This document shows positions 6,884 to 43,600 of a stretch of 49,809 nt of DNA, in pieces; the stretch's first letter is position 1, and each line of letters begins with the position of its first letter. Origin of the DNA: an uncultured Muribaculaceae bacterium (GTDB lineage Bacteria > Bacillota_I > Bacilli_A > RF39 > UBA660); contig CAYYLF010000002.1 in assembly GCA_964472425.1 (NCBI GenBank), positions 1 to 49,809 of the forward strand, read 5' to 3'. The notes beneath the pieces were generated by a model. That model was given only the letters and a program-made list of their open reading frames with translations. It was not told the origin of the DNA and ran no database searches. Position numbers and translations under genes: made by a program.

Positions 6884-7013
6884 AGAAGCATAGAAGACTA
6901 AAGCAACCTCTTCGTCATAAGAAAAGGACACACGAGGAACTTATCAACAAAAAAATGTGAGGGCAGGAGGCCAGTCTTTTATGTACCCAAATTTTGGAAA
7001 GAGGAAAAAAGTG

Positions 7014-8261
7014 ATGAAGAAAAAATTGGTAATAATCTTATCTGTACTGGTAATATTTGGCTTTGGAATATATGTCGGTAGGGGACCGAGCAACCTCAAA
7101 AACATAACCAAAATACCATCCAGTTCGAGTAGTATGATTGCGATGTATATCCAAGACGAAGAAGGCAATTACAATTTGAGTAATGCACAAGAATTCCCGA
7201 AGGATGGATACGTACTCAATACCGAGAAGAGTAATTGCAAGAATGGTGGAGTGATAACTCAGAACGCCAGTACGAAGGCTTTGAGTTTGAAAGTCAAAAC
7301 GAGCGATGAATGCTCAGTATTCTTCGATGTTGAAACTCTCAAAGTTGGAGAAAGCGCAAGAACAATCTTAGCTAAAGCGAACGATGCAGGCATAACAACT
7401 TATAACAATGGAAACAAAAAAGAAATGTTCGTATTCGACCATCCGGAGGCAGAACAAACTACGGGCTGGACCGAAGAAGAAAGAAGAGACTACAGATACA
7501 TAGGAAATGAACCCAATAACTATATAACATTCAATGATGAAACCTGGAAAATTATAGGTGTATTTACTGTTGAGATAGAGAATGGTAATAAAGAGCAACT
7601 AATTAAAATAATAAGAAATGACTATATAGGAGTAGGTATGTGGAATAATCCTGCCTTCACAGGTATAAATGAATGGTCTTCGGCCTCATCACAAATTTTA
7701 TTAAATGAAGACTATTATAATCAAAGTGGAAGTTATACAAGTACAGCAAGTGTAAAAGGACTAAGTACTATAGCACGTGCCCAAATCGCGAAAGCAAAAT
7801 GGTATTTGGGTGGGCCGAATACGATGTCAAATTTAAATGGCTCAGACTATTATAATTTTGAGCGAAGCACGAGAACATGTATAACAGAAAATGTAACCGA
7901 ATGCAACAATCAAACAAGAACAACGAGTATAATGCAAAATGTAGGATTAATGTATCCTAGTGATTATTTATATACATTTTCGAACGGAGTAAACAACACT
8001 TGTTATTCCAACGGGCAAAATTGTCAAACTAGTAAAGGTGGAACCCCAAGTTTAAGTTGGTTATTTAAAGGTGATTATCAATGGACTCAAACTCCATATG
8101 CAGGTAATCATAATAGTGCAGTTTATATCTATAAAGACGGATATATTAGTTATGATTGCACTATAGGTAGATACTTTCGTCCTGCCCTCTATCTCAACTC
8201 TTCAGTCAAAATAACTGGTGGAGATGGCTCAGAAGGCAACCCTTACACCTTATCCGAATAA
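7014..8261 (+). CDS. Anchored/secreted surface protein, paralog A (N-module + C-module)
   Basis: GGAAAGAGGA RBS 8 nt before ATG 7014. Signal anchor KKLVIILSVLVIFGFGIYVG. C-module RDYRYIGNEPNNYITFNDETWKIIGVF...RPALYLNSSVKITGGDGSEGNPYTL is shared with 21697 and 35047. Cys-rich. Confidence 0.75.
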   Translation: MKKKLVIILSVLVIFGFGIYVGRGPSNLKNITKIPSSSSSMIAMYIQDEEGNYNLSNAQEFPKDGYVLNTEKSNCKNGGVITQNASTKALSLKVKTSDECSVFFDVETLKVGESARTILAKANDAGITTYNNGNKKEMFVFDHPEAEQTTGWTEEERRDYRYIGNEPNNYITFNDETWKIIGVFTVEIENGNKEQLIKIIRNDYIGVGMWNNPAFTGINEWSSASSQILLNEDYYNQSGSYTSTASVKGLSTIARAQIAKAKWYLGGPNTMSNLNGSDYYNFERSTRTCITENVTECNNQTRTTSIMQNVGLMYPSDYLYTFSNGVNNTCYSNGQNCQTSKGGTPSLSWLFKGDYQWTQTPYAGNHNSAVYIYKDGYISYDCTIGRYFRPALYLNSSVKITGGDGSEGNPYTLSE

Positions 8262-8270
8262 CACCAATAG

Positions 8271-8299
8271 GTAGAAGACTCAACACACTTCTACTTTTT
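8271..8299 (+). terminator. Rho-independent terminator after paralog A
   Basis: GTAGAAG (8271-8277) pairs with CTTCTAC (8288-8294), followed by TTTTT. Confidence 0.7.
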
Positions 8300-8336
8300 C
8301 TCATGCCACCAAGTGTACAATTTCCCCCAAATGACT

Positions 8337-8364
8337 TTGAAATCGACCTCGAGCATGATATAAT
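8337..8364 (+). promoter_or_regulatory. Extended -10 promoter of the vWA/XpaC-like/SBP/SPFH operon
   Basis: TTGAAA 8337-8342, 16-nt spacer, then TGaTATAAT (TG 8356-8357, TATAAT 8359-8364). It lies inside the long ORF-track reading frame, which argues for the ATG at 8390. Confidence 0.55.
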
Positions 8365-8389
8365 AGACTCAAGAGAGAATGTGATAAGA

Positions 8390-9994
8390 ATGAATAAGAA
8401 TCCAAATGTAAGAGGTTTCTTGATAATCGTAGGGATAATCCTAATCGTAGCCATAGTCGGGGCGGTAACTGAAAAATACGACGAATACAAAGAAAACCGA
8501 ACATTCAACATCATCTCCTCGACCTCGAACACCTTCTTCGACTCCGAACTCAAAAAGTTCGCCAAAGACAATAAGATAGACGTCCAAATAGACTACTTTG
8601 GCGACATCGAAATAGTCGACATCCTAAACAGCATGAACTCCGACCCTGCGAACAAAAAATACGACGCCGTCTGGATTTCTAATTCCATCTGGCTCTACAT
8701 GCTCGACAACTCCTATCTCGTCACGGACTCCAAATCGATTGCCATCAATCCGGTCGTTCTAGCCGTCACTAAAAGCAAAGCTCGCGAGCTCGGATTCGAT
8801 GACCGCGATGTGACCAACCAAGACATACTATCGGCCATCCGCAACAAACAACTGAACTATGTCATGTCGAGTGTTACTAAGACAAATACGGGTGCTTCGT
8901 CCTACTTGGGGTTCCTAAACAGTCTCGCCGGAAGCCCCGAAGTTCTAACCGTCGACATGCTAAAAAATCCTATTCTCATAAATGACATGAAGACCCTTTT
9001 CACGGGAGTCGAGCGGGTGAGTGGAGATGAACTATACTTAGAAGAAATGTTCCTAAACGGTTCCTACGATGCAATTATCAACTACGAATCGTCTCTCATC
9101 GACATCAACAAAAAACTCGCCTCACAAGGGAAAGAACCTCTCTACTTGGTCTATCCTGTCGATGGAGTTTCGATAAACGACATGCCTTTCGGATATGTGA
9201 GTCGCGAACAAAACAAGAAGGAAACCTTCGAGAAATTCTTGAGCTTCCTCCGAAGCGAAGAGACGAGCAAAACTCTCGAAACGTACGGACTCAGAACGTG
9301 GTACGGAGGGACGAACACATTCGCGGACTCCGCGTCTTTCAAAAGAGAATGGGGCATAGACACGAACGACTACCTCATTCCACTCAAGTACCCGAGCAAA
9401 AAAGTCATCACGGAAGCCCTCGACATATACGTCGAACAACTTCGTAAACCGAATCACACGGTCTTCTGTCTAGACGTCTCGGGAAGCATGATAGGCGAAG
9501 GGCTCGACGAACTACAGGACGCGATGAACTACATACTCGATAGAGAAAAGGCCGGCAAAGACCGACTCCAATTCTCGCCGAACGACAGAATCTCGATAAT
9601 CACCTTCAACAGCCAAATTCAAAAGAAATCGAACACCTTCACGGGCGACAATACACTCCCGCTCATCACCTTTACGAACTCCCTCTATGCTTCTGGCGGA
9701 ACGAACATCTACGATCCGGCCCAAGAGGCTCTCAAAATACTTGCAAGCACGGATGGCAAAGAATACACGCGGACGGTGATACTGATGACCGACGGAGAAT
9801 CGAATACGGGTTCCTTCGAAAACCTGTCTCGTTACTACCAAAACAACCGACTGGACATTCCCATATATAGCATAATGTTCGGCGAATCGAATGCGAGTCA
9901 ACTTTCCGCCATCGCCGACCTCACCAACGCCAAAGTCTTCGACGGCAAAGAAGGCCTCAAAAAAGCCTTCCAAGAAGTTAGGAGTTACAACTGA
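8390..9994 (+). CDS. Membrane-anchored fusion: periplasmic-binding-protein-like domain + von Willebrand factor A domain
   Basis: TM helix FLIIVGIILIVAIVGAV. C-terminal vWA with MIDAS DVSGS (VFCLDVSGSMIGEGL), ..IITFNS.., GGTNIY, MTDGESNTG. Confidence 0.8.
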   Translation: MNKNPNVRGFLIIVGIILIVAIVGAVTEKYDEYKENRTFNIISSTSNTFFDSELKKFAKDNKIDVQIDYFGDIEIVDILNSMNSDPANKKYDAVWISNSIWLYMLDNSYLVTDSKSIAINPVVLAVTKSKARELGFDDRDVTNQDILSAIRNKQLNYVMSSVTKTNTGASSYLGFLNSLAGSPEVLTVDMLKNPILINDMKTLFTGVERVSGDELYLEEMFLNGSYDAIINYESSLIDINKKLASQGKEPLYLVYPVDGVSINDMPFGYVSREQNKKETFEKFLSFLRSEETSKTLETYGLRTWYGGTNTFADSASFKREWGIDTNDYLIPLKYPSKKVITEALDIYVEQLRKPNHTVFCLDVSGSMIGEGLDELQDAMNYILDREKAGKDRLQFSPNDRISIITFNSQIQKKSNTFTGDNTLPLITFTNSLYASGGTNIYDPAQEALKILASTDGKEYTRTVILMTDGESNTGSFENLSRYYQNNRLDIPIYSIMFGESNASQLSAIADLTNAKVFDGKEGLKKAFQEVRSYN

Positions 9995-10608
9995 TGAGAC
10001 AAATACAAAAAAGATACCTATATTCGGGACTTCTCGCCGCCGCATTCTTCATAATAATATACGGAATAATCGATTTCGACATCCTCTTGTCGCTTCTCTT
10101 GACCGCCGTCATATACGTAGGAGGCATCTTCCTCTTCAAAGAGAAGGACATTCGCACTCTCACGCCGGAGAACATCGACAACTACTACTTTATGGCTTCC
10201 AAATGTGCCAATCGAGCGCGCCTCATCGAAGACGAAGAAATTATAGACTACGTCGACAAGATTACGGCTTATACGGATGAGATAATCGTGAGTCTCTCAC
10301 AAAGACCCAAAAAAGTCGAGACCGTCTTCGACTTCTTCGATTACTACCTCGACATCACGAACAAGATACTCTCTCGCTACTACGTGCTCATGAAACACGA
10401 CAAGAAAAGCAAGAAAGATACCGAATTTATAAACAAAACGAAAGAATACCTAAAAAAGATAACCGAGATGTTCTCTCGCCTGCTTTCCAACATGAAAGAG
10501 GCGAGAATGCTCGACATCGAAAGCGAAATCAGAATATTCGAACATACTATCGGACTCAAAAAGACCGATATAGAAGTGGGTGAAAAAGATGAACTTAAAC
10601 AATCCTAA
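9994..10608 (+). CDS. Two-TM helical protein resembling XpaC (5-bromo-4-chloroindolyl phosphate hydrolysis family)
   Basis: TGATG stop/start overlap with the vWA gene. Two N-terminal TM helices, then a helical cytoplasmic part (FDFFDYYLDITNKILSRYYVL). The family assignment is by resemblance only. Confidence 0.5.
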   Translation: MRQIQKRYLYSGLLAAAFFIIIYGIIDFDILLSLLLTAVIYVGGIFLFKEKDIRTLTPENIDNYYFMASKCANRARLIEDEEIIDYVDKITAYTDEIIVSLSQRPKKVETVFDFFDYYLDITNKILSRYYVLMKHDKKSKKDTEFINKTKEYLKKITEMFSRLLSNMKEARMLDIESEIRIFEHTIGLKKTDIEVGEKDELKQS

Positions 10609-11716
10609 AGAAGGAAAAATAGAGAAAATAATCGGAATAGTGATAGTCCTCATCGTCATAATCGCCGCCATCGTCATCAAGAATGCTTTTAACGGAGGAA
10701 ATGCCAAAGTGGACACCGTACGAGTCGCGGCCGGAGGTGGCAAGGAAGCCTTCATGGCCGACGAAGAAGTCTCCAAGATTATGAAGAAAAAGTACGGAAT
10801 CGAAGTATCTTCCGACTCCTGGTCGAACGGCAAACTCGTTTCTTCGCCGGTCGTCGACACCACGGGAAACAAATACGACGCGATATTTTTCTCGGACGAG
10901 AGATTCTACGACTACTACAAACTCGAACCGACGGGAACCGAAGCCCCTCGCGACCGCGTTCGCGACGGAAGTCTTACCTTGAACACGCCGATAGTCATCT
11001 ACAGTTGGGACACGGTCACGGATGCCCTCATGAAAGAAGGCATAGTCACCAACCGGGGAGGAGTCTACTACATCACCGATATGAACAAACTTCTCGATTA
11101 TATCCTCGAAGGCAAAACCTGGAGTGATGTCGGACTTTCGAACATATACGGAAAAATCAACATCGACTCGACCGACCCCGTCACCTCGAGTCCGGGCGCT
11201 ACCTACTATGGACTATTGCTTTCCATCATGACTGGTGGCGAAATGGACGCGACTCACATCCAAGAAGCTTTACCGAAACTCAAAGAATTTTACCTGAAAA
11301 GTGGATACATGAACAACACGCCGGCCGACCTCTTCGAAATGTATTTGAAGACCGGAGTAGGGGCCAAACCGATGATAGTCGATTACGAAAAGAGCATAAT
11401 CGAATTCGCAACGTCGAACCCGAACGGATGGAACCAAGTCAAAGACAAAATACGCATACTGTATCCGACCCCGACCATTTGGAACTCTCACTGCATCGCG
11501 ACTTTCAATGAAACGGGCGACAGATTCTTAAACGCCTTCGACGATGCGGACATCCAACAGATAGCCTGGTCGAAATACGGTTTCCGAGTCGGAGTAAGTG
11601 GAGGCAATTACGATGTGAAAGCCGTCGGGATAAATGGAATACCGCAGTCCATCGACTCGGTCACGGGCGGTCTCAAAATGAACGTCTACAACCAAATCAT
11701 CGATTATTTAAAATAG
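10589..11716 (+). CDS. Membrane-anchored substrate-binding-protein-like protein
   Basis: Overlaps the preceding gene's end. TM IIGIVIVLIVIIAAIVI. Shares a ..KYDA[IV]..S.. pattern with the N-domain of 8390..9994. A GTG at 10580 is an alternative start. Confidence 0.6.
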   Translation: MNLNNPKEGKIEKIIGIVIVLIVIIAAIVIKNAFNGGNAKVDTVRVAAGGGKEAFMADEEVSKIMKKKYGIEVSSDSWSNGKLVSSPVVDTTGNKYDAIFFSDERFYDYYKLEPTGTEAPRDRVRDGSLTLNTPIVIYSWDTVTDALMKEGIVTNRGGVYYITDMNKLLDYILEGKTWSDVGLSNIYGKINIDSTDPVTSSPGATYYGLLLSIMTGGEMDATHIQEALPKLKEFYLKSGYMNNTPADLFEMYLKTGVGAKPMIVDYEKSIIEFATSNPNGWNQVKDKIRILYPTPTIWNSHCIATFNETGDRFLNAFDDADIQQIAWSKYGFRVGVSGGNYDVKAVGINGIPQSIDSVTGGLKMNVYNQIIDYLK

Positions 11717-11736
11717 AAAGAAAGTAGGAAAAAAAT

Positions 11737-12678
11737 ATGGGATTTATCAAATCAATTCAAAAATCGGTCGGAGGACAATACGAAGACCAATTTAGGGAGG
11801 TCATCAAAAGCAACAACGACAACCCCGGCATACTCATCAAAAAAGTGACGACCGAAAACGGAGTCATCACGGACCAATCGCGACTTTTCGTCGAACCAGG
11901 TGAATGTGCCATCTTCACGGACAATGGAGCCATCAAAGACATCATCACCGAACCTGGCATGTACTTCATGGACACTTCATCTCCGACTCTTTTCCAAACG
12001 AACATCTTCAAAGGCATAGGAGCGAATTTCCTAGAGAGCATGAAGAGAATCGCTTACGAAGGCAAGACGATAACCGAACAAGCCGTCTACTTCGTATCTT
12101 TGACCGAAAAATTAGGGAACAGATTCGGACTAGACAAACCGATACTCTACAAAGACCCCGAGTGGGGACCAATCGAGATAGACGCCGGAGGAGAATTCGC
12201 CTTCCAAATCGTCAATCCAATCAACTTGCTCACGAACGTATCCGGTACGACGCGCGACTTCTACGTAGAAGACTTGGCCGGCACGATTAGACCTTACGTC
12301 ACCTCCGGCATCATGACCGAGATTTCGACGAGCGGTTTGAGTTTCGACACCATCTCATCCAAACAGATTGAACTCGGTTCGAAAGTAATCGAAGAGACCA
12401 AAGAAAAACTCGCGAGTATGGGTATCGAGATAACCAAACTCGTCGTCACTTACATAGATGTTCCAGAAGAAGTCAAGAACTCTATGAGAGAGAGAACGGG
12501 TATCAAGATGAAGGCGACCAGTGTCGACGAGGCCGAAGCAGATATCTATACCAAACTCAACAAAGCCGAAGCCATCAAAGACCTCGCGAACAATCCTTCG
12601 AACGCCGGTTCGACCATCATGGGCATGAACGTCGGCAACACCTTCGCTGGAATGCTCAAAGACGACGAGAAAAAATGA
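11737..12678 (+). CDS. SPFH-like protein of the B. subtilis YdjI / COG4260 type
   Basis: MGFIKSIQKSVGGQ...L.V.PG..AIF..NG.I.D....PG.Y N-terminus and a C-terminal helical segment typical of this family. Last gene of the coupled cluster. Confidence 0.6.
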   Translation: MGFIKSIQKSVGGQYEDQFREVIKSNNDNPGILIKKVTTENGVITDQSRLFVEPGECAIFTDNGAIKDIITEPGMYFMDTSSPTLFQTNIFKGIGANFLESMKRIAYEGKTITEQAVYFVSLTEKLGNRFGLDKPILYKDPEWGPIEIDAGGEFAFQIVNPINLLTNVSGTTRDFYVEDLAGTIRPYVTSGIMTEISTSGLSFDTISSKQIELGSKVIEETKEKLASMGIEITKLVVTYIDVPEEVKNSMRERTGIKMKATSVDEAEADIYTKLNKAEAIKDLANNPSNAGSTIMGMNVGNTFAGMLKDDEKK

Positions 12679-12774
12679 TGTCAACAAAACCTGGACCCAA
12701 CGGTCCTTTTCTTTTTAAAGAGAAAAAAGGAAAATAAATCCGCTGGTATTATTTAGTACTGCTTCTTTCTATAT

Positions 12775-12802
12775 TTGACATTTTCTCATTATTCTCTATA
12801 AT
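12775..12802 (+). promoter_or_regulatory. Sigma-A-type promoter
   Basis: TTGACA 12775-12780, 16-nt spacer, TATAAT 12797-12802. The predicted TSS falls after ATG 12805, which favours the start at 12844. Confidence 0.5.
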
Positions 12803-12843
12803 ATATGACGAAATACCAAAAAATCTTATGGGAGGTTTTACAT

Positions 12844-13866
12844 ATGAAAAACAGATACGGTTGGGTTTCCGAATATCAAAGGAAAAAATTTTTGGAAAGA
12901 CACGGAAACAAAAAAACTTCGAGTCCACTAAGCGATTCTTTCGATATAAATCTATCGCTCATAGATTTGAGCCCCGAAAGAAGTAAAGCGATTGCCGTAA
13001 TGCTCGACTTAGATGGCACGAGTACCGATATAGACGATGAAGGTGCAATCATGTTTGTAAGACAATTGGATACGTTGAGAAAAAAATTCGAGGCTGAAAC
13101 TTGTTATATAAGCATTTCGACTCATTATGGAGATATTGCCGATTATAAGATACGACCCGTTTTGAACTGCCTTTCTCGTCATTTAATCGAGCACATTCAA
13201 ATAGGGGAGACGTTCTATTATGATGGAACCTACAGTTACGAAGAAAATAGATTTTATCCCCGTCGTCCGCATTTCAATGCTGACAAAATCGCGACTTTTA
13301 CGGAGTACTACTTGAACCGCGACGATTTCGATACAGTTTGGTTCGCGCTCATCGACGACAACATCGACGAAAACGCTTACAGAGACTATCGAGATGATAA
13401 AACGATGCTCATCGCCAAACCGTCGGCAGGGATAGAAAATACCCCAGCCGATAACATCATGAGTATCTCGACGACTATGAAAGGATTCAGAGGTGTTTTA
13501 AAACTCTTGTCATCATATATCGCCGAGATAGAAAACTTGACTCGGAGCGACATACTCACTCGCCAACGTAACATGAATGACGTTCTCTCAAAACGAAAAC
13601 TACACGAAAAGATACTTATGAGAGACTATGCTTTCTTAGAAAACTATATCTGTGGCAATCGTGCTTCTGACACCGATTATGCAGAAACAATCGAATGGCT
13701 AATTTATACGAACGACAGAAGATATCCTACTTTAGAAGAACTCAAACACATCGAAAAAATTCTCTCTCACATAGCCTCTCATTATCGCGCTCGCGACCAT
13801 GAAATTGAAGCCGAGCACGTGATGAGACTATGCGAAGTATTTAAAAGAACGACTGAATCTAAATAA
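12844..13866 (+). CDS. Hypothetical protein with an HAD-like DxDGT motif
   Basis: GGGAGG 8 nt before ATG 12844. AVMLDLDGTSTD resembles HAD motif I. Otherwise unrecognised. Confidence 0.45.
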   Translation: MKNRYGWVSEYQRKKFLERHGNKKTSSPLSDSFDINLSLIDLSPERSKAIAVMLDLDGTSTDIDDEGAIMFVRQLDTLRKKFEAETCYISISTHYGDIADYKIRPVLNCLSRHLIEHIQIGETFYYDGTYSYEENRFYPRRPHFNADKIATFTEYYLNRDDFDTVWFALIDDNIDENAYRDYRDDKTMLIAKPSAGIENTPADNIMSISTTMKGFRGVLKLLSSYIAEIENLTRSDILTRQRNMNDVLSKRKLHEKILMRDYAFLENYICGNRASDTDYAETIEWLIYTNDRRYPTLEELKHIEKILSHIASHYRARDHEIEAEHVMRLCEVFKRTTESK

Positions 13867-15920: not shown

Positions 15921-16481
15921 ATGACAAGAGTTAAAGGTGGATCTGTTGCAAAAAACAGACGTAGAAAAGTTTTAAAACAAGCCAAAGGTTACTTTGGAAG
16001 CAAGCATAGATTGTTCAAGACGGCTCAAGAACAAGTATTCCACAGTGGTAAATACGCTTATCGTGACCGCAAAAACAACAAACGTAACTTCCGGAAACTT
16101 TGGATTACGCGTATCAATGCTGGTTGCCGTGCTAACGACATCAGTTACTCTAAGTTCATCGATGGTCTCAACAAGGCTGGGGTAGAAGTAAACAGAAAGA
16201 TGCTTTCCGAAATCGCCATCGACAATCCGGCACTATTCACTTCTTACGTAGAGATTGCTAAAGACGCATTAAACGGAAAAGCGCCTAAAGCTACGAAGGC
16301 CGACGCTCCAAAAGCGGAAGTAAAAGAGGAGAAGAAGACTGAAAAAGTAGAGAAGGCCGAAGAGTCTACGACTGACATCTCCAAGATGACTGTCGCCGAA
16401 CTCAAAGAATTAGCCAAAGAAAAAGGCATCGAAAACTACACTTCTATGAAGAAAGCTGAACTTATCGATGCACTAAAATAA
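15921..16481 (+). CDS. rplT: 50S ribosomal protein bL20 with a ~67-aa C-terminal extension
   Basis: Residues 1-118 are canonical bL20 (TRVKGG...KGYFG...YAYRDR...WITRINA). Residues 119-186 are a Lys/Glu/Ala-rich linker plus [31 protein letters not shown]. Confidence 0.93.
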
Positions 16482-22985: not shown

Positions 22986-23085
22986 GGAAAAATGTGATAT
23001 TTCTGCCAAGTATATCTAGAATTTCGTGATAAAACTCGTTGAAATAGACGGAATTTTGTGATAAATGCTTGTAGAGGTGAATGAA

Positions 23086-24423
23086 ATGCCAAGACTTAGA
23101 AGAAAAATAGATGCATTTTTGCTAAGTTGGAAAAACGATGAAAACAGACTTCCGCTCGTAGTAAAAGGGGCAAGACAGATAGGAAAAACCGACGCCATCG
23201 AAAACTTTGCGGCCAACAACTACAAGTACCTTGTAGATATCAACTTCGTACTAGACAAACAATACAAAGGCATCTTTGACGATGGATACGACGTGGACAC
23301 GATTATCAGAAACATCTCTCTCATCAATCCCAGATTTGAATTCGTTCCAAAAGAAACGCTCATCTTTTTCGACGAAATACAAGATTGTGCAAACGCAGCT
23401 ACTTCTTTGAAATCGTTCAACATACATGGCCGTTATGACGTCATTTGTTCGGGCTCGCTTATGGGTATAAATTATAACGAAATCGAATCTAATGCTGTCG
23501 GAAACAAACGAAATTACGAAATGTATTCCCTTGACTTCGAAGAATTTCTCTGGGCCAAAGGTTATAAAGAAGAACAAATCGAAGACATGTATTCCTACAT
23601 GAAAGAATGCAAGCCACTTCCCCAAATTATGTACGACGTCATGCTCGACAATTCCCGAGAATACATGGTCGTTGGAGGGATGCCTGCCATAGTAAATAGA
23701 TTCGTAACTCAAAAGAACTATAGTGGTATACTCGAAATGCAAAATCAGATACTCCTAGACTACAAAGAAGACATCACCAAATACGCCCAAGGTCTAGACC
23801 AGACTCGCATACTGAATGTCTATAACAAAATACCAGTTTTCTTGGGAAACGAAAACAAAAAATTCCAAATATCGAAAGTCGAACACGGGGCGAGAACACG
23901 CGAGTACATAGGTACAATCGATTGGCTCGACCGCGCTGGAATAATAAACATCTGCCACTGTCTCGAACAACTAGAGCTTCCCCTCAAAGCAAACTACAAT
24001 CCGGACAATTATAGAATTTACTTTAGAGATACAGGTCTACTAATCGCGTCACTCGACGAAGAATCTCAAATGGATTTGAGAAACAACAAAAACTTCAACA
24101 CATATAAAGGAGCTCTATACGAAAATATAGTAGGGGACATGTTAGTCAAAGCCGGCTATTCGCTTTACTTCTACAAAAACGAAAAAGGCACAATCGAAAT
24201 GGACTTCTTCGTAAGGGACGCCGATTCGCTCATCCCAATCGAAGTCAAAGCGAACGACAACAGTACTCCGTCGCTCAATAACTTGATAAACTCGGATTCG
24301 TTCAAAGTCATCAAATACGGAATAAAACTGTGCAACAAGAACATCGGCTTCAATGGCAAATTCTACACCTTCCCGTACTTTCTGACCTTCCTATTGAAAA
24401 GATATCTAAAAGAGAAAAAATAA
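23086..24423 (+). CDS. AAA ATPase of the COG1373 / DUF4143 type, copy 1
   Basis: Walker A GARQIGKT, Walker B LIFFDEIQ. C-terminal ..YENIVGDMLVKAGYSLYFYK....EMDFFV....IPIEVK nuclease-like tail. AGAGGTGA RBS before ATG 23086. Confidence 0.8.
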   Translation: MPRLRRKIDAFLLSWKNDENRLPLVVKGARQIGKTDAIENFAANNYKYLVDINFVLDKQYKGIFDDGYDVDTIIRNISLINPRFEFVPKETLIFFDEIQDCANAATSLKSFNIHGRYDVICSGSLMGINYNEIESNAVGNKRNYEMYSLDFEEFLWAKGYKEEQIEDMYSYMKECKPLPQIMYDVMLDNSREYMVVGGMPAIVNRFVTQKNYSGILEMQNQILLDYKEDITKYAQGLDQTRILNVYNKIPVFLGNENKKFQISKVEHGARTREYIGTIDWLDRAGIINICHCLEQLELPLKANYNPDNYRIYFRDTGLLIASLDEESQMDLRNNKNFNTYKGALYENIVGDMLVKAGYSLYFYKNEKGTIEMDFFVRDADSLIPIEVKANDNSTPSLNNLINSDSFKVIKYGIKLCNKNIGFNGKFYTFPYFLTFLLKRYLKEKK

Positions 24424-24575: not shown

Positions 24576-25838
24576 ATGAAATACGTCAATAGAACTATGG
24601 AAAAAACACTAAAAAAATTTATAGGAAACTATCCTGTTATTTTAATCACTGGGCCACGTCAAGTAGGGAAAACGACACTTCTAAATTATTTATCCAGTAC
24701 TTCCAAGAAAAAAATAAACTATGTTACTTTAGATGACAAAATTGTAAGTGCTCAGGCAAGTGCCGATCCCGAGTTGTTTCTTAGAATGCACGAGACCCCT
24801 CTCGTAATAGACGAATTCCAGTATGCTCCAGAAATACTGTCGTATATCAAAATTCAAATCGACCAAGCGAGAAAAGATGCCATGTTCGGCAACAAAAAGG
24901 AAGTTGGCACACTTTATTATCTTACCGGTAGTCAGATTTTTGAAACGATGAAAGATGTGACAGAATCCTTAGCTGGAAGAATCGGAATACTGGATTTATA
25001 CGCCTTTTCGACGCGCGAACTCGAAAATTCTGAAGAAATACCTTTCGTACCAGATGTGCAAAAACTCAAAAAGAAAAAACAGGTTGATAGAGTATCCATT
25101 CCTAAATTATTCGAAAGAATACTGAAAGGAAGCTACCCAGAAATAAACTTTAACAAGAATATAAGTTTTGAAAATTATTTTAGGGATTACATTAGAACTT
25201 ACATAGAAAGAGATATAAGAAAGATAATAAACATCAAAGACGAAAACAAATTTATTCACTTCTTAACTTCAATTGCCGCCCGAACCGGACAAGAGTTTAT
25301 CGCTGAACACATAGGAAAAGAAATAGGAATAACGGGTAAAACTGTCGACGAGTGGCTATCGCTCCTCAAAAATACGGGTATAATTTACCTTTTAAAACCT
25401 TACTCGAATAACTTTGTCGCTCGTGCCATCAAAAGAGAAAAAATCTACTTTATGGACACAGGGCTTGCCTGCTATTTAACTGGCTACACCGACTCATCCA
25501 TCCTAGAAAAGAGTGCTTATAATGGCGCCATTTTCGAAACGTATATTATAAGCGAAATCGTCAAATCGTATGAAAATAATGGAATCGACCCCGACAGACA
25601 TCTATATTTTTATAGAGATAACCGCCAACAAGAAATCGATTTAATTGTAAACGACAATAATTTCCTTTATCCAGTCGAAATCAAAAAAAGCACCAATCCG
25701 AGTCGAGAAGCGACTAAAAATTTCGATGTTCTCAAAAATTCGGGGTACAATATAGGCAATGGAGTAGTGCTCTGCCTTTGTAAAGAAATCACGGCGATAG
25801 ACGACAACAACTATCGTGTTCCAATTGAATATATATAA
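24576..25838 (+). CDS. AAA ATPase of the COG1373 / DUF4143 type, copy 2
   Basis: Walker A GPRQVGKTT, Walker B LVIDEFQ. C-terminal ..FETYIISEIVKSY.......QEIDLIV......PVEIKKS. Confidence 0.8.
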   Translation: MKYVNRTMEKTLKKFIGNYPVILITGPRQVGKTTLLNYLSSTSKKKINYVTLDDKIVSAQASADPELFLRMHETPLVIDEFQYAPEILSYIKIQIDQARKDAMFGNKKEVGTLYYLTGSQIFETMKDVTESLAGRIGILDLYAFSTRELENSEEIPFVPDVQKLKKKKQVDRVSIPKLFERILKGSYPEINFNKNISFENYFRDYIRTYIERDIRKIINIKDENKFIHFLTSIAARTGQEFIAEHIGKEIGITGKTVDEWLSLLKNTGIIYLLKPYSNNFVARAIKREKIYFMDTGLACYLTGYTDSSILEKSAYNGAIFETYIISEIVKSYENNGIDPDRHLYFYRDNRQQEIDLIVNDNNFLYPVEIKKSTNPSREATKNFDVLKNSGYNIGNGVVLCLCKEITAIDDNNYRVPIEYI

Positions 25839-30404: not shown

Positions 30405-31883
30405 ATGGAGAAAACACAAATATTTGAGTCTATTGCTAAACGCGGTAATGGCGAAATCTACTTAGGAGTAGTAGGAGCAGTAAGAACTGGTAAATCGACC
30501 TTCATAAAACGATTTATCGAAAACCTCGTCGTTCCTAATATAAAAGACGAGTACGAAAAAAAACATTGCCTTGACGAGATACCACAAAGTGCTCAAGGCA
30601 AGACGATTATGACGACCGAACCCAAATTCGTTCCTTCCAATGGGGCGAGCATCGAAGTAGGTGAACTTACGGCCAATATCAAACTCATCGACTGTGTCGG
30701 ATACGTCATCCCTGGTGCATCCGGATACGACGACGAAATGGGGAACCCTCGCATGGTCAAAACGCCATGGACCCCGGAAGAAATTCCGTTTACTGAGGCT
30801 GCCGAAATCGGAACCGAAAAGGTCATCAAGGACCACGCGACCATCGGAATAGTCGTGACGACCGATGGTTCCTTCGGGGAAATTCCTCGAGCTGAATACA
30901 TAAACGCCGAAGAGCGAGTCATCATGGAACTCAAAACCCTCGGCAAACCTTTCATAGTCATCATGAACACGGTCCATCCGACCAATACCGAAACGGTCCG
31001 TTTGTCCGGCGAAATATCCGAAAAATACGACGTTCCAGTCCTTCCGGTAAGTGTCGAGACGATGAACGAACAAGACATCATGGAAATACTCAAAACAGCC
31101 CTCATGGAGTTCCCCGTTCTAGAAGTGAACGTGAGCATTCCAGACTGGATACACGTCCTCGACAACACCCACGAAATAAAAGCCGAATTCTTAAATAAAA
31201 TAAGAGAATCGGTCATGGAAGTCGATAAAATAAAAGACATCGAAGCCATCCTCGGCCACTTTAACGAGACTAAATACATATCTAAATCTTACATGAGCGA
31301 GTTGGATGCGAATATCGGAGTCGTCACTTTAAAACTCGAAGCCTCTCGAGACCTCTATCGCGAGACACTCAAATCGGTCATGGGTGACGTCTCCCTTTCG
31401 AAAGCTAGTATTCTAAAGATGTTCATCAACATGAGTTCAGGGGCAAGTGAGACATTACAAATCAAAGACGCGCTCAAAATGGCGCGCAGTACGGGATACG
31501 GCATCATGTATCCAGACTTGAAAGATATGAAGTTGGAGACGCCTGAGATAATCAAGCAAGGCAACAAATACGGCGTCAAACTGAAAGCGGTCGCCAGTTC
31601 TATTCACTTGATTAAGGTCGACGTCGAGAGCACCTTCGAACCGATAATCGGAAGCGAACTTCAAAGTAAAGAACTCATAAACTTCATCATGAAAGACTAC
31701 GAGACCGACCCATCGAGTATCTGGAAAAGCGAAATATTCGGCCGCAGTCTCGACGTCATAGTCAAAGAAGGAATCCAAGGAAAACTTTCCCTCATGCCGG
31801 AAACAACCCGTTACAAACTCGGTTCGACCATCACCAAAATCGTCAACAAAGGGGCCAACAACCTTATCGCCTTCGTACTTTAA
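30405..31883 (+). CDS. spoIVA: Stage IV sporulation protein A (spore coat morphogenetic ATPase)
   Basis: IFESIAKRGNGEIYLGVVGAVRTGKSTFIKRF Walker A, 492 aa, conserved C-terminus NNLIAFVL. hup lies downstream, as in Bacillus. Confidence 0.93.
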   Translation: MEKTQIFESIAKRGNGEIYLGVVGAVRTGKSTFIKRFIENLVVPNIKDEYEKKHCLDEIPQSAQGKTIMTTEPKFVPSNGASIEVGELTANIKLIDCVGYVIPGASGYDDEMGNPRMVKTPWTPEEIPFTEAAEIGTEKVIKDHATIGIVVTTDGSFGEIPRAEYINAEERVIMELKTLGKPFIVIMNTVHPTNTETVRLSGEISEKYDVPVLPVSVETMNEQDIMEILKTALMEFPVLEVNVSIPDWIHVLDNTHEIKAEFLNKIRESVMEVDKIKDIEAILGHFNETKYISKSYMSELDANIGVVTLKLEASRDLYRETLKSVMGDVSLSKASILKMFINMSSGASETLQIKDALKMARSTGYGIMYPDLKDMKLETPEIIKQGNKYGVKLKAVASSIHLIKVDVESTFEPIIGSELQSKELINFIMKDYETDPSSIWKSEIFGRSLDVIVKEGIQGKLSLMPETTRYKLGSTITKIVNKGANNLIAFVL

Positions 31884-40613: not shown

Positions 40614-43600
40614 ATGAAGATATACTTGTACCTCAAAAACAAAATTTTGACCTTTGCACTTCCTCAAAAAGTTTCAGGAAACTTCAACTTCGACGAACAC
40701 TCGTACGAAGAATCCAAACTGATAAACATCGAAGCCATCGATTCCAAATGGTACTTATATTCGACGAGTGACGTAAACATCATCTCGAACGGAATGGTTC
40801 TCGCTCGTGTTGCTCTCGAAAAAGACCAATACTACTTCGTCAAGAGAGCAGGGGTAGACTACATGCTCTTCGCGACCGACGCCTTCGACGCGAGTTTCTT
40901 GCCGTACAAATACAGCCAAGACACGGCACTCACCATCGGAAACGACTCGTCTTGTAATATAAAATTCTCGTCTCCCTTCGTCAAAGGGGTCGCAGCCAGA
41001 ATAAGAATATCCGGCACGGACATAGGACTCGACACCTTAGAGACGACCGTCTATCTGAACAATGTCGCCCTCGAACCCAAGACGACGAACTATCCACTAA
41101 AAGGTGGGGACGAGTTGAACATCTATGGACTGAAACTCATGTTCCTAAATGGCTTTCTGCTTTTGAACAATCCTCACAACACGGTCACCTGCAACACGGC
41201 CAGTGCCAAACTGTCCTCGTACCAGCTCACCTATGGAAATGACCCGCAAGACCTCGAAATCAAAGATGCAGAACTCTACTCTAAAGACGACTACTTTTCG
41301 AAGTCCCCAAGAATAAGACGAACTATAAAGACCAAGGAGATAACCTTAAGCCCTCCACCTCGTCAAGACAAAGAGACCGAAATGCCACTTCTTTTGACGA
41401 TTGGACCTATGCTCACGATGGGGTGTGTTTCACTCATCATGTTTCTAAATACGCTAGGAAACATCTCGAACGGAAAAGCGACCCTCGCCCAATCTTGGCC
41501 GAGCCTCCTTTCTTCGATGGCCATGCTCGCCTCGACCCTTCTGTGGCCGACTCTCACGCGCATATTCAATAAGACACTCAAAGCCAAGAGAAAAAGAGAA
41601 CTCATTCGCAAATACACCCGTTACCTCGACACCAAAAGAGAAGAGCTTTCGAAAGAGCAAAAACTGCAACACGAAATACTTCTAGAAAATCTGATTCCAG
41701 TATCCGAATGTCTAAACATCATCCAAAGCGGAAAAGCTCGGTTCTGGGACAAGCGCATAGAACAGAGTGACTTCCTCGAAGTTCGCCTCGGCACGGGCAA
41801 AGAACACTTAGATGTCAAAATAAACTACCCGGAAGAGGGTTTCACCATCGACGAAGACGACCTTCGTAAACAAGCCGATGCTCTCGTCGAAGAATTCGCT
41901 TACTTGTACGATGTGCCAATAGGCTACTCGCTATACAAAAACAAGATAACCGCCCTCATGGGTGATGCGAACAAATGCAACGGAATGCTCCAAAACATCA
42001 TCCTTCAACTTCTGACCTTTTATAGCTACGAAGACATCAAAATAGTCGTCATCACGAACCCCTTGAACCAAGACAAATGGGAATACGTCCGTTACTTGAA
42101 TCACTCATTCTCGAACGACAAACAGATAAGATTCTTCTCTTCCGATGCCGAAGGAGCTAAGAGGATATGCGACTATCTGAACACCGAACTCACTTCGCGT
42201 ATCCAACTCGCTCAAGACGGGGCCAAATTCTTCAAACCGTACTATGTCATCTTCACCGACAACTACTCGCAAATCAAGCGGCACAATTTCACGAAGACGA
42301 TGACCGAATACGACGAAAATTTGGGCTTCAGTCTCGTCATTCAGGAAAGCCGAATGAGCAAACTTCCGAGCAAATGTAACAACTTCATAACCCTTAGTGG
42401 CTCGTCCGCGGACATCCTCAAAAACTCGTTCGAAGCCCAAGAAGCATCGAGTTTCCACGAAGAAATAAACGCGAGCATCGACATGATGGCCGTCGCCCGA
42501 AAAATCTCAAACATACCTATCGAATTCGAAGAAGGAACCAAACAACTGCCGGATTCCATAACCTTCTTGGAGATGGAAAGAGTAGGTAAAGTAGAACAAC
42601 TGAACATCATGAACCGTTGGGATACAAACGACTCGACGACGAGCCTCAAAGCGGAGATAGGTGTCGACGACGAAGGAAGCCCGATGTATTTGGACCTTCA
42701 CGAAAAATATCACGGGCCCCATGGACTTATCGCCGGCATGACCGGAAGTGGTAAATCCGAATTCATCATCACCTACATCCTATCGATGGCCATCAACTAC
42801 AGTCCCGACGACGTCGCCTTCATTCTCATCGATTATAAGGGTGGAGGACTCGCGGGAGCCTTCGAAAACAAGACGACCGGATTCGTCCTTCCACACCTCG
42901 CCGGAACGATTACCAACCTCGACAAAGCCGAGATGGACAGAACTCTCGTCAGCATAGACAGCGAAATAAAACGTCGTCAAAAGATATTCAACGAAGCCCG
43001 CGACCGCTTGGGCGAATCGACCATCGACATCTACAAATACCAGACCTTCTTCAAAGAAGGAAGATTAACTGAACCGGTCCCACATCTTTTCATAATATGC
43101 GACGAGTTCGCCGAGCTGAAAAGTCAACAACCGGAATTTATGGACAACTTGATAAGCGTAGCCCGCATAGGTCGAAGCCTCGGTGTTCACCTCATCTTGG
43201 CCACTCAAAAACCGAGTGGAGTGGTAAACGACCAAATTTGGTCCAACACCAAGTTCCGGGTCTGTTTGAAGGTTCAAGATGCCTCCGACAGTAAAGAAAT
43301 GCTCAAACGCCCGGAAGCCGCGAGCATCAAACAGACCGGTCGGTTCTACCTACAAGTCGGATACGACGAATACTTCGCACTCGGTCAATCGGCTTGGTGT
43401 GGTGCCAAATACTTCCCGAGCGAAAAAATCGTCAAACAAGTCGACAAGAGCATCAACTTCATAGACGACACGGGAAACGTCATCAAGAGCATCCAATCGG
43501 GCAACAACATCAAAATCGAAGCTCAAGGCGAACAACTCGCGGCCATCATGACCAACATAGTCGAGGTCGCGCGTACCTTCGGAAAGAAGACCAAAAGACT

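What the first reader, a model, noticed from the sequence alone, without database searches (positions are those of the whole stretch)
8337..12678. Translationally coupled four-gene membrane module: SBP-vWA fusion, XpaC-like, SBP-like, SPFH (YdjI-like)
One extended -10 promoter (8337-8364) precedes four genes with overlapping or tightly spaced junctions: TGATG at 9992-9996, a 20-29 nt overlap near 10600, and a 20-nt gap before 11737. The products are: (1) a TM anchor + binding-protein-like domain + vWA domain with an intact MIDAS (DVSGS...TDGESN); (2) a two-TM helical protein resembling XpaC; (3) a second anchored binding-protein-like protein; (4) a COG4260/YdjI-type SPFH-like protein. vWA (TerY-like), XpaC/TelA and SPFH/PspA-associated proteins are each linked in the literature to envelope or chemical-stress systems (Ter/TelA neighbourhoods, B. 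subtilis pspA-ydjGHI). This particular combination, with two extracytoplasmic ligand-binding-like domains, is not a system I can name. It may be a ligand-sensing membrane stress or scaffolding complex.
Basis: partly seen in the sequence, partly recalled or inferred. Interest (0 to 1): 0.7.

Follow-up and report, generated by a model that had tools for sequence, protein, structure and literature searches.

The report
Sensor-equipped XpaC module with SPFH output
This is a real, tightly packed four-gene operon for a membrane complex: two outward-facing binding-protein-like sensors, a small two-helix membrane adaptor (XpaC-like) and a cytoplasmic SPFH scaffold. It is a rarer version of a widespread, uncharacterised module whose fourth gene is usually the enigmatic stress protein TelA.

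Summary
Four + strand genes sit between an extended -10 promoter (8337-8364) and a terminator (12693-12706). The junctions are as described. Domain calls are confirmed:
- g1: TM + SBP_bac_11 + vWA, with a conserved MIDAS.
- g2: PF10112 (XpaC).
- g3: no Pfam family, but a predicted type II binding-protein fold, distantly paralogous to the g1 binding domain.
- g4: PF13421 SPFH with no TM.

The set is strongly conserved. A g3 relative is present in 292 species-representative genomes, and g1-g2-g3 are colinear in 77 of the 80 loci examined. The fourth gene is TelA in 59 loci, the SPFH protein in 10 (the window's type) and absent in 10.

The same SBP-vWA / XpaC / SBP / TelA operon occurs in Bifidobacterium. 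Permuted versions occur in a betaproteobacterium and a Deinococcus. One distant relative fuses the g3-like domain, across a TM helix, to a BTAD (SARP-type) regulator domain.

Best reading: an extracytoplasmic-sensing elaboration of the XpaC-TelA envelope-stress pair. XpaC recruits a TM-less sub-membrane scaffold, and SPFH has displaced TelA in this lineage. The ligand and the physical contacts are inferred. I rate it a new variant of a known kind. One key 2012 comparative-genomics paper could not be read.

The parts
8337..8364 (+). Sigma-70-type promoter: TTGAAA, 16-nt spacer, TGnTATAAT (extended -10).
   Evidence: 11/12 match, TG present. The -10 block CATGATATAAT is identical in the closest relative L006 and partly kept in L007.
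8390..9994 (+). g1: signal-anchored SBP-vWA protein of 534 aa. The mechanical ORF starts at 8303. N-terminal TM at about 8414-8470. SBP_bac_11 domain at about 8549-9295. vWA domain at about 9458-9934. MIDAS DVSGS at 9473-9487, plus the Thr of GGT and the Asp of TDGESN.
   Evidence: Pfam. Homologue lengths of 530-540 aa. MIDAS D-x-S-x-S / T / D at least 97% conserved in 81 sequences. One TM in 78/81. AF2 model with pLDDT 84.2; the SBP part matches AfuA, FbpA, Sbp, MctA and ModA.
9994..10608 (+). g2: XpaC-like protein of 204 aa. N-terminal two-TM hairpin followed by a helical domain of about 155 aa, predicted cytoplasmic. The start overlaps the g1 stop (TGATG).
   Evidence: PF10112, E 2.7e-12, above cut-off. 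Junction. Alignment A2 shows partner-specific indel and C-terminal motif differences between TelA-type and SPFH-type loci.
10589..11716 (+). g3: signal-anchored, binding-protein-like protein of 375 aa. It belongs to no Pfam or NCBIfam family. It overlaps g2 by 20 nt.
   Evidence: AF2 model with pLDDT 78.7; Foldseek gives type II SBPs at E 7e-9. hhalign against the g1 SBP domain gives E 3.6e-4 over 245 colinear columns. 116 columns are at least 97% conserved in 86 sequences. 734 clusters at 50% identity have E<1e-3.
11737..12678 (+). g4: SPFH protein without a TM (313 aa, Band_7_1). It follows a 20-nt gap that contains AGGA.
   Evidence: PF13421, E 2.3e-27. No TM in 16/16 homologues. Homologues down to 56% identity all lie in the same four-gene module.
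12693..12716 (+). Intrinsic terminator-like hairpin GGACC-CAAC-GGTCC followed by a T-run. This is the end of the operon.
   Evidence: An independent 12/12 consensus promoter follows at 12775-12802.

Best explanation
The operon encodes a membrane-spanning sensing and scaffolding complex. It is an elaborated form of the XpaC-TelA envelope-stress pair.

Proposed components:
- g1 and g3 are paralogous type II binding-protein domains, each held on the outer face of the membrane by one N-terminal TM helix. They act as sensors, not transport receptors. Their fold class is that of binders of anionic ligands (sugar phosphate, oxyanion, Fe-anion, metal-citrate) or polyamines.
- g1 adds a MIDAS-containing vWA domain. 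This probably mediates a metal-dependent contact with g3 or with an envelope component.
- g2 (XpaC-like) is the transducer and anchor. Its TM hairpin would contact the sensor anchors. Its cytoplasmic helical domain would recruit a TM-less peripheral scaffold.
- The recruited scaffold is TelA in most lineages. In the window's lineage it is a dedicated SPFH protein (g4) that has displaced TelA.

The output is local organisation or protection of the membrane, not transcription.

Shown here: gene order, domain identities, conservation, the TelA/SPFH alternation, and predicted topology.
Inferred: all protein-protein contacts, the ligand, and the stress-protective output.
For: 1. Operon anatomy with overlapping junctions, one promoter and one terminator.

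2. Conservation. 292 species-representative genomes encode a g3 relative. Of the 80 best loci, 77 carry g1-g2-g3 colinearly. The fourth gene is TelA in 59, SPFH in 10, none in 10, and 1 is at a contig end.

3. Flanking genes differ between loci (ftsH/PBP2, rpoC/ftsW, truB/rplU, pheT and others), so the set is kept as a unit.

4. Breadth. The same SBP-vWA / XpaC / SBP / TelA operon is in Bifidobacterium. Permuted sets are in Sphaerotilus (g3-like, TelA, vWA, 2TM-helical) and Deinococcus (g3-like, SBP-vWA, 2TM-helical).

5. In an NJ tree of g3, the TelA-type and SPFH-type loci fall into separate clades rather than interleaving. The swap is therefore old and stably inherited.

6. g2 carries partner-specific features: an insertion of about 12 aa after TM2 and a distinct C-terminal motif in TelA-type loci. 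This is as expected if g2 binds the fourth protein.

7. Topology. g1 and g3 each have a single N-terminal TM with more K/R before it than after. g4 and TelA have none.

8. In P0296, a g3-like domain lies across a TM helix from a BTAD (SARP-type) regulator domain, next to two SBP-vWA genes. This indicates an extracytoplasmic sensor-input role for the g3-like domain.

9. No ABC permease or ATPase is adjacent in any locus whose genes were listed.

10. Literature:
- xpaC-yaaN(telA) belongs to the core sigma-W regulon (PMC3498285).
- A Listeria telA mutant is nisin-sensitive (Collins 2010, as cited in PMC12791056).
- E. faecium XpaC controls daptomycin binding and lipid microdomains only when TelA is present (PMC6811118).
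- The TM-less SPFH protein YdjI needs integral membrane partners and organises PspA (PMC8581546).
Against: - No experiment or complex prediction links the four proteins physically.
- g2 is poorly conserved (median 27% identity). The proteobacterial and Deinococcus 2TM proteins are not detectably homologous to XpaC (hhalign E 0.23).
- 10 of 80 loci have no adjacent fourth gene, and one distant relative (L091) has only the vWA + g3-like pair. The sensors can therefore work without a linked XpaC, TelA or SPFH.
- The positive-inside bias supporting the topology is modest.
- The promoter looks housekeeping-type, not ECF-type. Stress induction is unsupported here.
- The ligand class is only a fold-level guess.
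Confidence: 0.6

Rival explanations
1. g1 and g3 are orphan substrate-binding proteins of an ABC importer encoded elsewhere. The operon's role would be uptake of an anionic solute, and XpaC and SPFH would be incidental neighbours.
For: Both domains have the type II SBP fold of the iron / oxyanion / sugar-phosphate cluster. SBP_bac_11 is a transporter-receptor family.
Against: - No permease or ATPase gene is adjacent in any locus inspected, across four phyla.
- The link to XpaC plus TelA or SPFH is conserved in about 70 of 80 loci.
- The proteins are TM-anchored and have no lipobox.
- One relative fuses the g3-like domain to a transcription-regulator domain.
- The fusion to a MIDAS vWA domain is not a transporter feature.
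Confidence: 0.1
2. The module is a surface adhesion or host-interaction device. The extracellular vWA/MIDAS domain of g1 would bind host matrix or mucin, or another cell, and the other genes would support its display.
For: vWA/MIDAS domains are classical adhesion modules. The domain is predicted to be outside the membrane. Almost all close relatives come from gut or rumen metagenomes.
Against: - Conservation is very high for a surface protein: g1 has 90 columns and g3 has 116 columns at least 97% conserved.
- Related sets occur in free-living Sphaerotilus and Deinococcus.
- A single N-terminal TM keeps the domains beneath the wall.
- There is no sortase signal or wall anchor.
- The link to cytoplasmic TelA or SPFH is obligate.
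Confidence: 0.07
3. It is an anti-phage or anti-colicin defence system of the Ter/TelA type. It would sense envelope perturbation by phage and trigger membrane-level abortive infection.
For: According to the abstract of Anantharaman et al. 2012 (recalled from memory, paper not readable here), the ter cluster and TelA have been implicated in resistance to phages and colicins.
Against: - No significant PADLOC match for any of the four proteins (TerY E 0.025 only).
- The locus sits among core housekeeping genes (truB, rplU, rpmA, infC, nusA, infB), not in a defence island.
- Inheritance is clade-wise and vertical.
- No phage-borne copies.
- No nuclease, protease or pore-forming effector.
Confidence: 0.08
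4. The four genes form two independent units that happen to be adjacent: an SBP-vWA/SBP dyad and an XpaC/SPFH dyad. There would be no joint complex.
For: The vWA + g3-like dyad exists alone in L091. XpaC-TelA exists alone in Bacillus, Listeria and Enterococcus (PMC3498285, PMC12791056, PMC6811118).
Against: - g2 is interleaved between g1 and g3, with overlapping reading frames, in 77 of 80 loci.
- The association recurs in a different gene order in other phyla. This argues for selection on co-expression.
Confidence: 0.12

Closest known systems
XpaC-TelA (YaaN) two-gene envelope-stress module of Bacillota (B. subtilis xpaC-yaaN, Listeria lmo1966-lmo1967, E. faecium xpaC-telA)
   Same: g2 is a PF10112 XpaC-family protein with the same 2TM + helical architecture. 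In 59 of 80 related loci the gene after g3 is a bona fide TelA (PF05816, E 1e-120 in L001). Both are operons with a membrane adaptor and a TM-less cytoplasmic partner.
   Different: The window has no TelA; a Band_7_1 SPFH protein occupies that position. Two extracytoplasmic binding-protein-like genes, one fused to vWA, are added and interleaved. There is no evidence here for sigma-W or ECF control; the promoter is sigma-A-like with an extended -10.
B. subtilis PspA-YdjGHI system (YdjI, a TM-less SPFH protein that links PspA to the membrane; PMC8581546)
   Same: g4 belongs to the same Pfam family (PF13421). It lacks a TM and would need integral membrane partners encoded in its operon, as YdjI needs YdjG and YdjH.
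   Different: - No pspA, ydjG or ydjH homologue in the operon or anywhere in the 49.8-kb window.
- g4 lacks the C-terminal zinc ribbon that Ravi et al. (PMC11237479) describe for the band-7 protein of that operon. Such a ribbon is present in a second Band_7_1 protein in L015.
- The g4 lineage was found only inside this module.
Binding-protein-dependent signalling, in which a periplasmic binding protein acts as a sensor partner of a membrane transducer (for example LuxP-LuxQ and TorT-TorS, named from general knowledge)
   Same: Type II binding-protein folds with no cognate transporter genes, coupled to a membrane protein. A relative (P0296) has the g3-like domain fused, via a TM helix, to a BTAD (SARP-type) regulator domain.
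   Different: No kinase, cyclase or DNA-binding output in the window's operon. The output is a scaffold protein (SPFH or TelA). The sensors are themselves TM-anchored, and one carries a vWA domain.
TerY-type vWA proteins of ter clusters; BatA/BatB-MoxR vWA systems
   Same: A vWA domain with an intact MIDAS in a stress-associated membrane context.
   Different: No ter genes, no PP2C or kinase partners, no MoxR ATPase. PADLOC TerY gives E 0.025 and NCBIfam BatA gives 23 bits against a cut-off of 380. The vWA domain here is predicted to be outside the cell and is fused to a binding-protein domain.

Membership tests
XpaC-TelA module | [quoted passage not shown] | tested here: met
   g2: PF10112, E 2.7e-12, 47.5 bits against a 29.8 cut-off, covering profile positions 4-190 of 191. 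Two hydrophobic segments at residues about 9-48.
XpaC-TelA module | An adjacent TelA (PF05816) gene in the same operon | tested here: not met
   No TelA in the operon or in any scanned ORF of the window. TelA is present at this position in 59 of 80 related loci.
XpaC-TelA module | Induction by envelope stress, or a contribution to resistance against membrane-active antimicrobials | not testable with these tools
   Needs expression or mutant data. Literature exists only for Bacillus, Listeria and Enterococcus (PMC3498285, PMC12791056, PMC6811118).
YdjI-type SPFH (PspA-YdjGHI system) | A Band_7_1 (PF13421) SPFH domain without a TM anchor | tested here: met
   PF13421, E 2.3e-27. No TM in g4 or in its 15 homologues.
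YdjI-type SPFH (PspA-YdjGHI system) | A C-terminal zinc-ribbon domain, as Ravi et al. (PMC11237479) describe for the band-7 protein of the ydj operon | tested here: not met
   g4 ends ...AGMLKDDEKK, with no Cys pairs and no Zn-ribbon Pfam hit. A different Band_7_1 protein in L015 does carry Zn ribbons.
YdjI-type SPFH (PspA-YdjGHI system) | An operon with pspA and the membrane proteins YdjG and YdjH | tested here: not met
   None in the operon, in the window, or in the SPFH-type loci L004 and L088-L090.
ABC-transporter substrate-binding protein | A type II periplasmic binding-protein fold | tested here: met
   g1: SBP_bac_11, E 8e-15; Foldseek E 5e-12, TMt 0.62-0.72. g3: Foldseek E 7e-9, TMt up to 0.64.
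ABC-transporter substrate-binding protein | Genomic linkage to permease and ATPase subunits | tested here: not met
   Absent next to the module in every locus with listed genes.
TerY / ter-cluster vWA | Profile-level membership and linkage to ter genes or PP2C/kinase partners | tested here: not met
   PADLOC TerY E 0.025 over 50 residues only. No ter, PP2C or kinase genes nearby.
vWA domain with a functional MIDAS | D-x-S-x-S, T and D metal-coordinating residues | tested here: met
   DVSGS (D391, S393, S395), T467 and D497 in 563-aa numbering, all at least 97% conserved in 81 sequences, including Bifidobacterium.

The most novel reading that the evidence does not exclude
The module defines a pan-bacterial signalling-to-scaffold system, found in Bacillota, Actinomycetota, Pseudomonadota and Deinococcota. 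A pair of paralogous extracytoplasmic binding-protein sensors, one with a MIDAS vWA domain, reports an envelope or solute cue through a small 2TM adaptor to an interchangeable sub-membrane scaffold. The non-homologous TelA-to-SPFH displacement would then mean that TelA, whose molecular role has been obscure for decades, is a functional analogue of SPFH/flotillin-type membrane organisers. 'Tellurite resistance' would be a by-product of this role.
Probability: 0.35. Interest if true: 0.75.

Novelty: new variant of a known kind. Interest (0 to 1): 0.6.

Why it matters
TelA and XpaC recur in screens for resistance to nisin, daptomycin, bacteriocins and tellurite. Their mechanism is unknown.

This locus shows three things:
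- The XpaC adaptor is very often embedded in a larger, strongly conserved operon with two dedicated extracytoplasmic binding-protein-like sensors.
- That operon is common in uncultured gut Bacillota and is present in Bifidobacterium.
- TelA can be replaced by a TM-less SPFH scaffold.

The replacement gives a concrete, testable hypothesis for what TelA does: it is a recruited sub-membrane scaffold. It also points to what activates the system: a ligand sensed outside the membrane. Finally, the g3 family (734 clusters at 50% identity, no Pfam model, annotated 'hypothetical') is flagged as a conserved sensor domain worth defining.

Tried and rejected
- PADLOC scan of all four proteins and both flanking proteins: nothing significant. 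The defence-system reading was rejected.
- NCBIfam: only far-sub-threshold vWA hits.
- Rfam over the whole window: two tRNAs only, with no riboswitch or leader upstream of the operon.
- tblastn of g3 against phage genomes: no match.
- PDB sequence searches for g2, g3 and g4: no meaningful hit.
There is therefore no model of the XpaC-like cytoplasmic domain.
- hhalign of the XpaC alignment against the Deinococcus 2TM protein: no similarity (E 0.23). Only an architectural parallel is claimed.
- Anantharaman, Iyer & Aravind 2012 (PMC4104200) is the paper most likely to have catalogued TelA neighbourhoods. It is not held. Full-text searches for combinations of XpaC, TelA, vWA, SBP and the Pfam/COG identifiers found no description of this four-gene set.
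- I checked whether the 'no fourth gene' loci hide a divergent TelA or SPFH gene just downstream. They do not; the downstream genes are unrelated.
- The SPFH gene about 4 kb upstream in L015 and L020 is a different, zinc-ribbon-bearing Band_7_1 protein, separated from the module by ffh.

Full report
**Observation**

The region 8337-12678 contains four consecutive + strand ORFs.

- g1: 8303-9994 as a mechanical ORF. The probable start is ATG 8390, giving 534 aa. Homologues are 530-540 aa, and the predicted promoter lies inside the longer ORF.
- g2: 9994-10608, 204 aa.
- g3: 10589-11716, 375 aa. This matches homologues of 375-376 aa aligned at 100% coverage.
- g4: 11737-12678, 313 aa.

The promoter TTGAAA-16-TGnTATAAT is at 8337-8364.
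- TGATG at 9992-9996, preceded by AGGAG.
- A 20/29-nt overlap of g2 and g3.
- A 20-nt spacer with AGGA before g4.

A hairpin plus T-run at 12693-12716 ends the unit. A separate perfect-consensus promoter at 12775-12802 serves the next gene.

Promoter-like hits are not enriched in the region overall (17 against 12.8 +/- 3.3). This one, however, is intergenic, and its extended -10 is positionally conserved in the two nearest relatives.

**Identity of the products**

Pfam gives:
- g1: SBP_bac_11 (E 8e-15) plus VWA (E 1.6e-13).
- g2: PF10112 Halogen_Hydrol/XpaC (E 2.7e-12, above the gathering score).
- g4: PF13421 Band_7_1 (E 2.3e-27).
- g3: nothing. NCBIfam also gives nothing for g3.

An AlphaFold model of g3 (pLDDT 78.7) matches type II solute-binding proteins in the PDB. 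The matches include a Bordetella SBP, ferric-binding FbpA/FutA, sulfate-binding protein and ModA (E 7e-9 to 1e-6, TM up to 0.64 on the target).

The g1 model (pLDDT 84.2) places its N-terminal domain in the same structural neighbourhood. Its matches include AfuA, FbpA, Sbp, MctA and ModA (E 5e-12 and weaker).

g3 and the g1 binding domain are distant paralogues:
- BLASTP: 22% identity, E 0.006, colinear.
- hhalign: E 3.6e-4 over 245 columns, though the reported probability is only 36.8% on shallow alignments (Neff about 1.8-2.6), so this rests on the E-value, the colinearity and the motifs.
- Shared motifs include YDA(I/V)..S, (S/T)xxGAT.Y.G.L, (V/I).YE.S.I and YG(F/L)R.

The MIDAS residues of g1 (D-x-S-x-S, T, D) are at least 97% conserved in 81 homologues.

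Hydropathy analysis gives:
- One N-terminal TM in g1 (78/81) and in g3 (86/86), with more K/R before the helix than after it.
- A TM hairpin in g2.
- No TM in g4 or TelA.

The predicted layout is therefore two binding-protein-like ectodomains (one with vWA) outside, a 2TM adaptor with a cytoplasmic helical domain, and a soluble or peripheral SPFH protein inside.

**Conservation**

A pattern scan of one genome per GTDB species found 292 genomes with a g3 relative. The 80 best loci were fetched. All are gut or rumen MAGs labelled Bacilli, Clostridia, Clostridium sp. CAG:524 or CAG:780, Ca. Scatovivens, Mollicutes and similar.

Scoring all ORFs of these loci with phmmer gave:
- g1-g2-g3 colinear in 77 of 80. 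Two more are cut by contig ends, and one lacks a detectable g1.
- The next gene is TelA in 59, a g4-type SPFH in 10, nothing related in 10, and 1 is at a contig end.

Pfam annotations of called genes confirm this.

The flanks differ between loci: ftsH/PBP2, rpoC/ftsW, pheT, and in the window truB and rplU-rpmA. The set is therefore maintained as a unit.

All g4 homologues whose contexts I inspected, down to 56% identity, sit in the same four-gene arrangement. g4 is thus a module-dedicated SPFH lineage.

In an NJ tree of g3 rooted on Bifidobacterium:
- The TelA-type loci form one large clade.
- The SPFH-type loci form adjacent groups that include the window.
- The 'no fourth gene' loci nest within the SPFH-type group.

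The exchange is old and rare, not sporadic. The tree has no support values, so the number of events is uncertain.

**Wider distribution**

- Bifidobacterium (B. reuteri; the g3-like protein is annotated 'substrate-binding domain-containing protein') has SBP-vWA / XpaC-like / g3-like / TelA in the same order.
- tblastn against plasmids found 22-25% identical g3 relatives on megaplasmids.
  - In Sphaerotilus the set is g3-like / TelA / vWA protein / a 226-aa protein with a TM hairpin and a helical tail.
  - In Deinococcus it is g3-like / SBP_bac_11-vWA / a similar 212-aa protein.
  - These 2TM proteins are not detectably homologous to XpaC, so only the architecture is shared.
- A 34%-identical relative (L091) has just a vWA protein plus the g3-like gene.
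- In L092, two SBP-vWA genes precede P0296. In P0296 a BTAD (SARP-type) regulator domain is followed by a TM helix and a g3-like domain.

P0296 is the best evidence here that the g3-like domain is an extracytoplasmic sensor input. It also shows that the domain works with SBP-vWA proteins independently of the particular output.

**Mechanistic reading**

Known facts about the closest system:
- xpaC-yaaN(telA) is in the core sigma-W regulon of B. subtilis (PMC3498285).
- A Listeria telA mutant is more sensitive to nisin and tellurite (Collins 2010, as summarised in PMC12791056).
- In E. faecium, deleting xpaC alone lowers the daptomycin MIC 8-fold and redistributes anionic lipid microdomains, but only if telA is intact (PMC6811118).
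- The TM-less SPFH protein YdjI needs the integral membrane proteins YdjG and YdjH. It is required to place PspA at the membrane and affects membrane fluidity (PMC8581546).

Against this background, a non-homologous displacement of TelA by a TM-less SPFH protein, at the same operon position and downstream of the same three genes, suggests two things. First, both proteins are peripheral scaffolds recruited by the XpaC-like adaptor. Second, the two ectodomain proteins supply the input.

Alignment A2 supports a g2-partner contact. g2 proteins from TelA-type loci share an insertion of about 12 residues after TM2 and a distinct C-terminal motif. Both features are absent from SPFH-type loci.

The fold class of both binding domains suggests an anionic ligand (sugar phosphates, oxyanions, Fe-anion, metal-citrate) or a polyamine. 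This is no more than a lead.

None of the contacts, the ligand or the physiological output has been tested.

**Rivals**

- Transport role: disfavoured, because no permease or ATPase is present in any locus.
- Adhesin role: disfavoured by extreme conservation, presence in free-living bacteria and the cytoplasmic partners.
- Defence role: disfavoured by negative PADLOC results, core-chromosome location, vertical inheritance and absence from phages.
- Two independent dyads: possible in principle, since each dyad exists alone somewhere. It is hard to reconcile with g2 being interleaved between g1 and g3 with overlapping frames, and with the association recurring in permuted order in other phyla.

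**Comparison and novelty**

The window's operon works like, and is evolutionarily an offshoot of, the XpaC-TelA module. It fails that module's membership test on TelA itself.

g4 shares family and TM-less character with YdjI. It lacks the zinc ribbon and the pspA-ydjGH context.

I found no description of the four-gene set, or of the TelA/SPFH alternation, in the searchable literature. The 2012 comparative analysis of Ter/TelA neighbourhoods could not be read and may well list the TelA version.

I therefore rate this a new variant of a known kind. Interest is 0.6. The finding is solid and conserved, and it gives a testable handle on TelA function, but the mechanism is inferred.

Noticed in passing
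L092:7001-9022 (protein P0296), with L092:1373-6986 upstream: A 673-aa protein combines a BTAD (SARP-type) transcription-regulator domain, a TM helix, a proline-rich linker and a g3-like binding domain. It follows two SBP-vWA genes, one of 1368 aa. It looks like a one-component transmembrane regulator that uses the g3-like domain as its sensor.
   Followed up: partly
L094:5833-10549 (Sphaerotilus sulfidivorans plasmid) and L095:5884-9090 (Deinococcus taeanensis plasmid): Permuted versions of the module occur outside the Gram-positives. One is g3-like / TelA / vWA / 2TM-helical protein. The other is g3-like / SBP-vWA / 2TM-helical protein. The 2TM proteins have XpaC-like architecture but no detectable sequence similarity to XpaC.
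   Followed up: partly
window 15921-16481: The ribosomal protein L20 gene (rplT) encodes a 186-aa product. It has a C-terminal extension that matches Rho_N/SAP-like domains (E 2e-10), which is unusual for L20.
   Followed up: no
window 23065-24423 and 24576-25838: Two tandem paralogous AAA_14 + DUF4143 ATPase genes.
   Followed up: no
window 40614-45194: A 1526-aa protein with FtsK/SpoIIIE ATPase domains, consistent with an EssC-like type VII secretion ATPase or a long SpoIIIE/FtsK. The window also carries spoIVA (30405-31883), so the organism is probably a spore-forming member of the Bacillota.
   Followed up: no
window 6957-8261 and 12805-13866: The genes flanking the operon have no family assignment. 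They are a 434-aa protein with an N-terminal hydrophobic anchor upstream and a 353-aa protein downstream. The downstream gene has its own perfect-consensus promoter (TTGACA-16-TATAAT, 12775-12802).
   Followed up: no
L006, L007, L063, L078 (record titles): The closest relatives of the window (83-85% identical g3) are deposited as 'uncultured Muribaculaceae bacterium' MAGs. Their gene content matches the Bacillota loci, and the window has sporulation genes. These taxonomic labels look wrong.
   Followed up: no
L015:778-1932 and L020:909-2063: In the clade whose module lacks a fourth gene, a different Band_7_1 protein with C-terminal zinc ribbons lies about 4 kb upstream. This is the architecture Ravi et al. 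describe for the ydj-operon SPFH protein. It is separated from the module by ffh and an unknown gene.
   Followed up: partly
window 8271-8299: A possible weak terminator for the upstream gene: GTAGAAG-10 nt loop-CTTCTAC followed by TTTTT.
   Followed up: no
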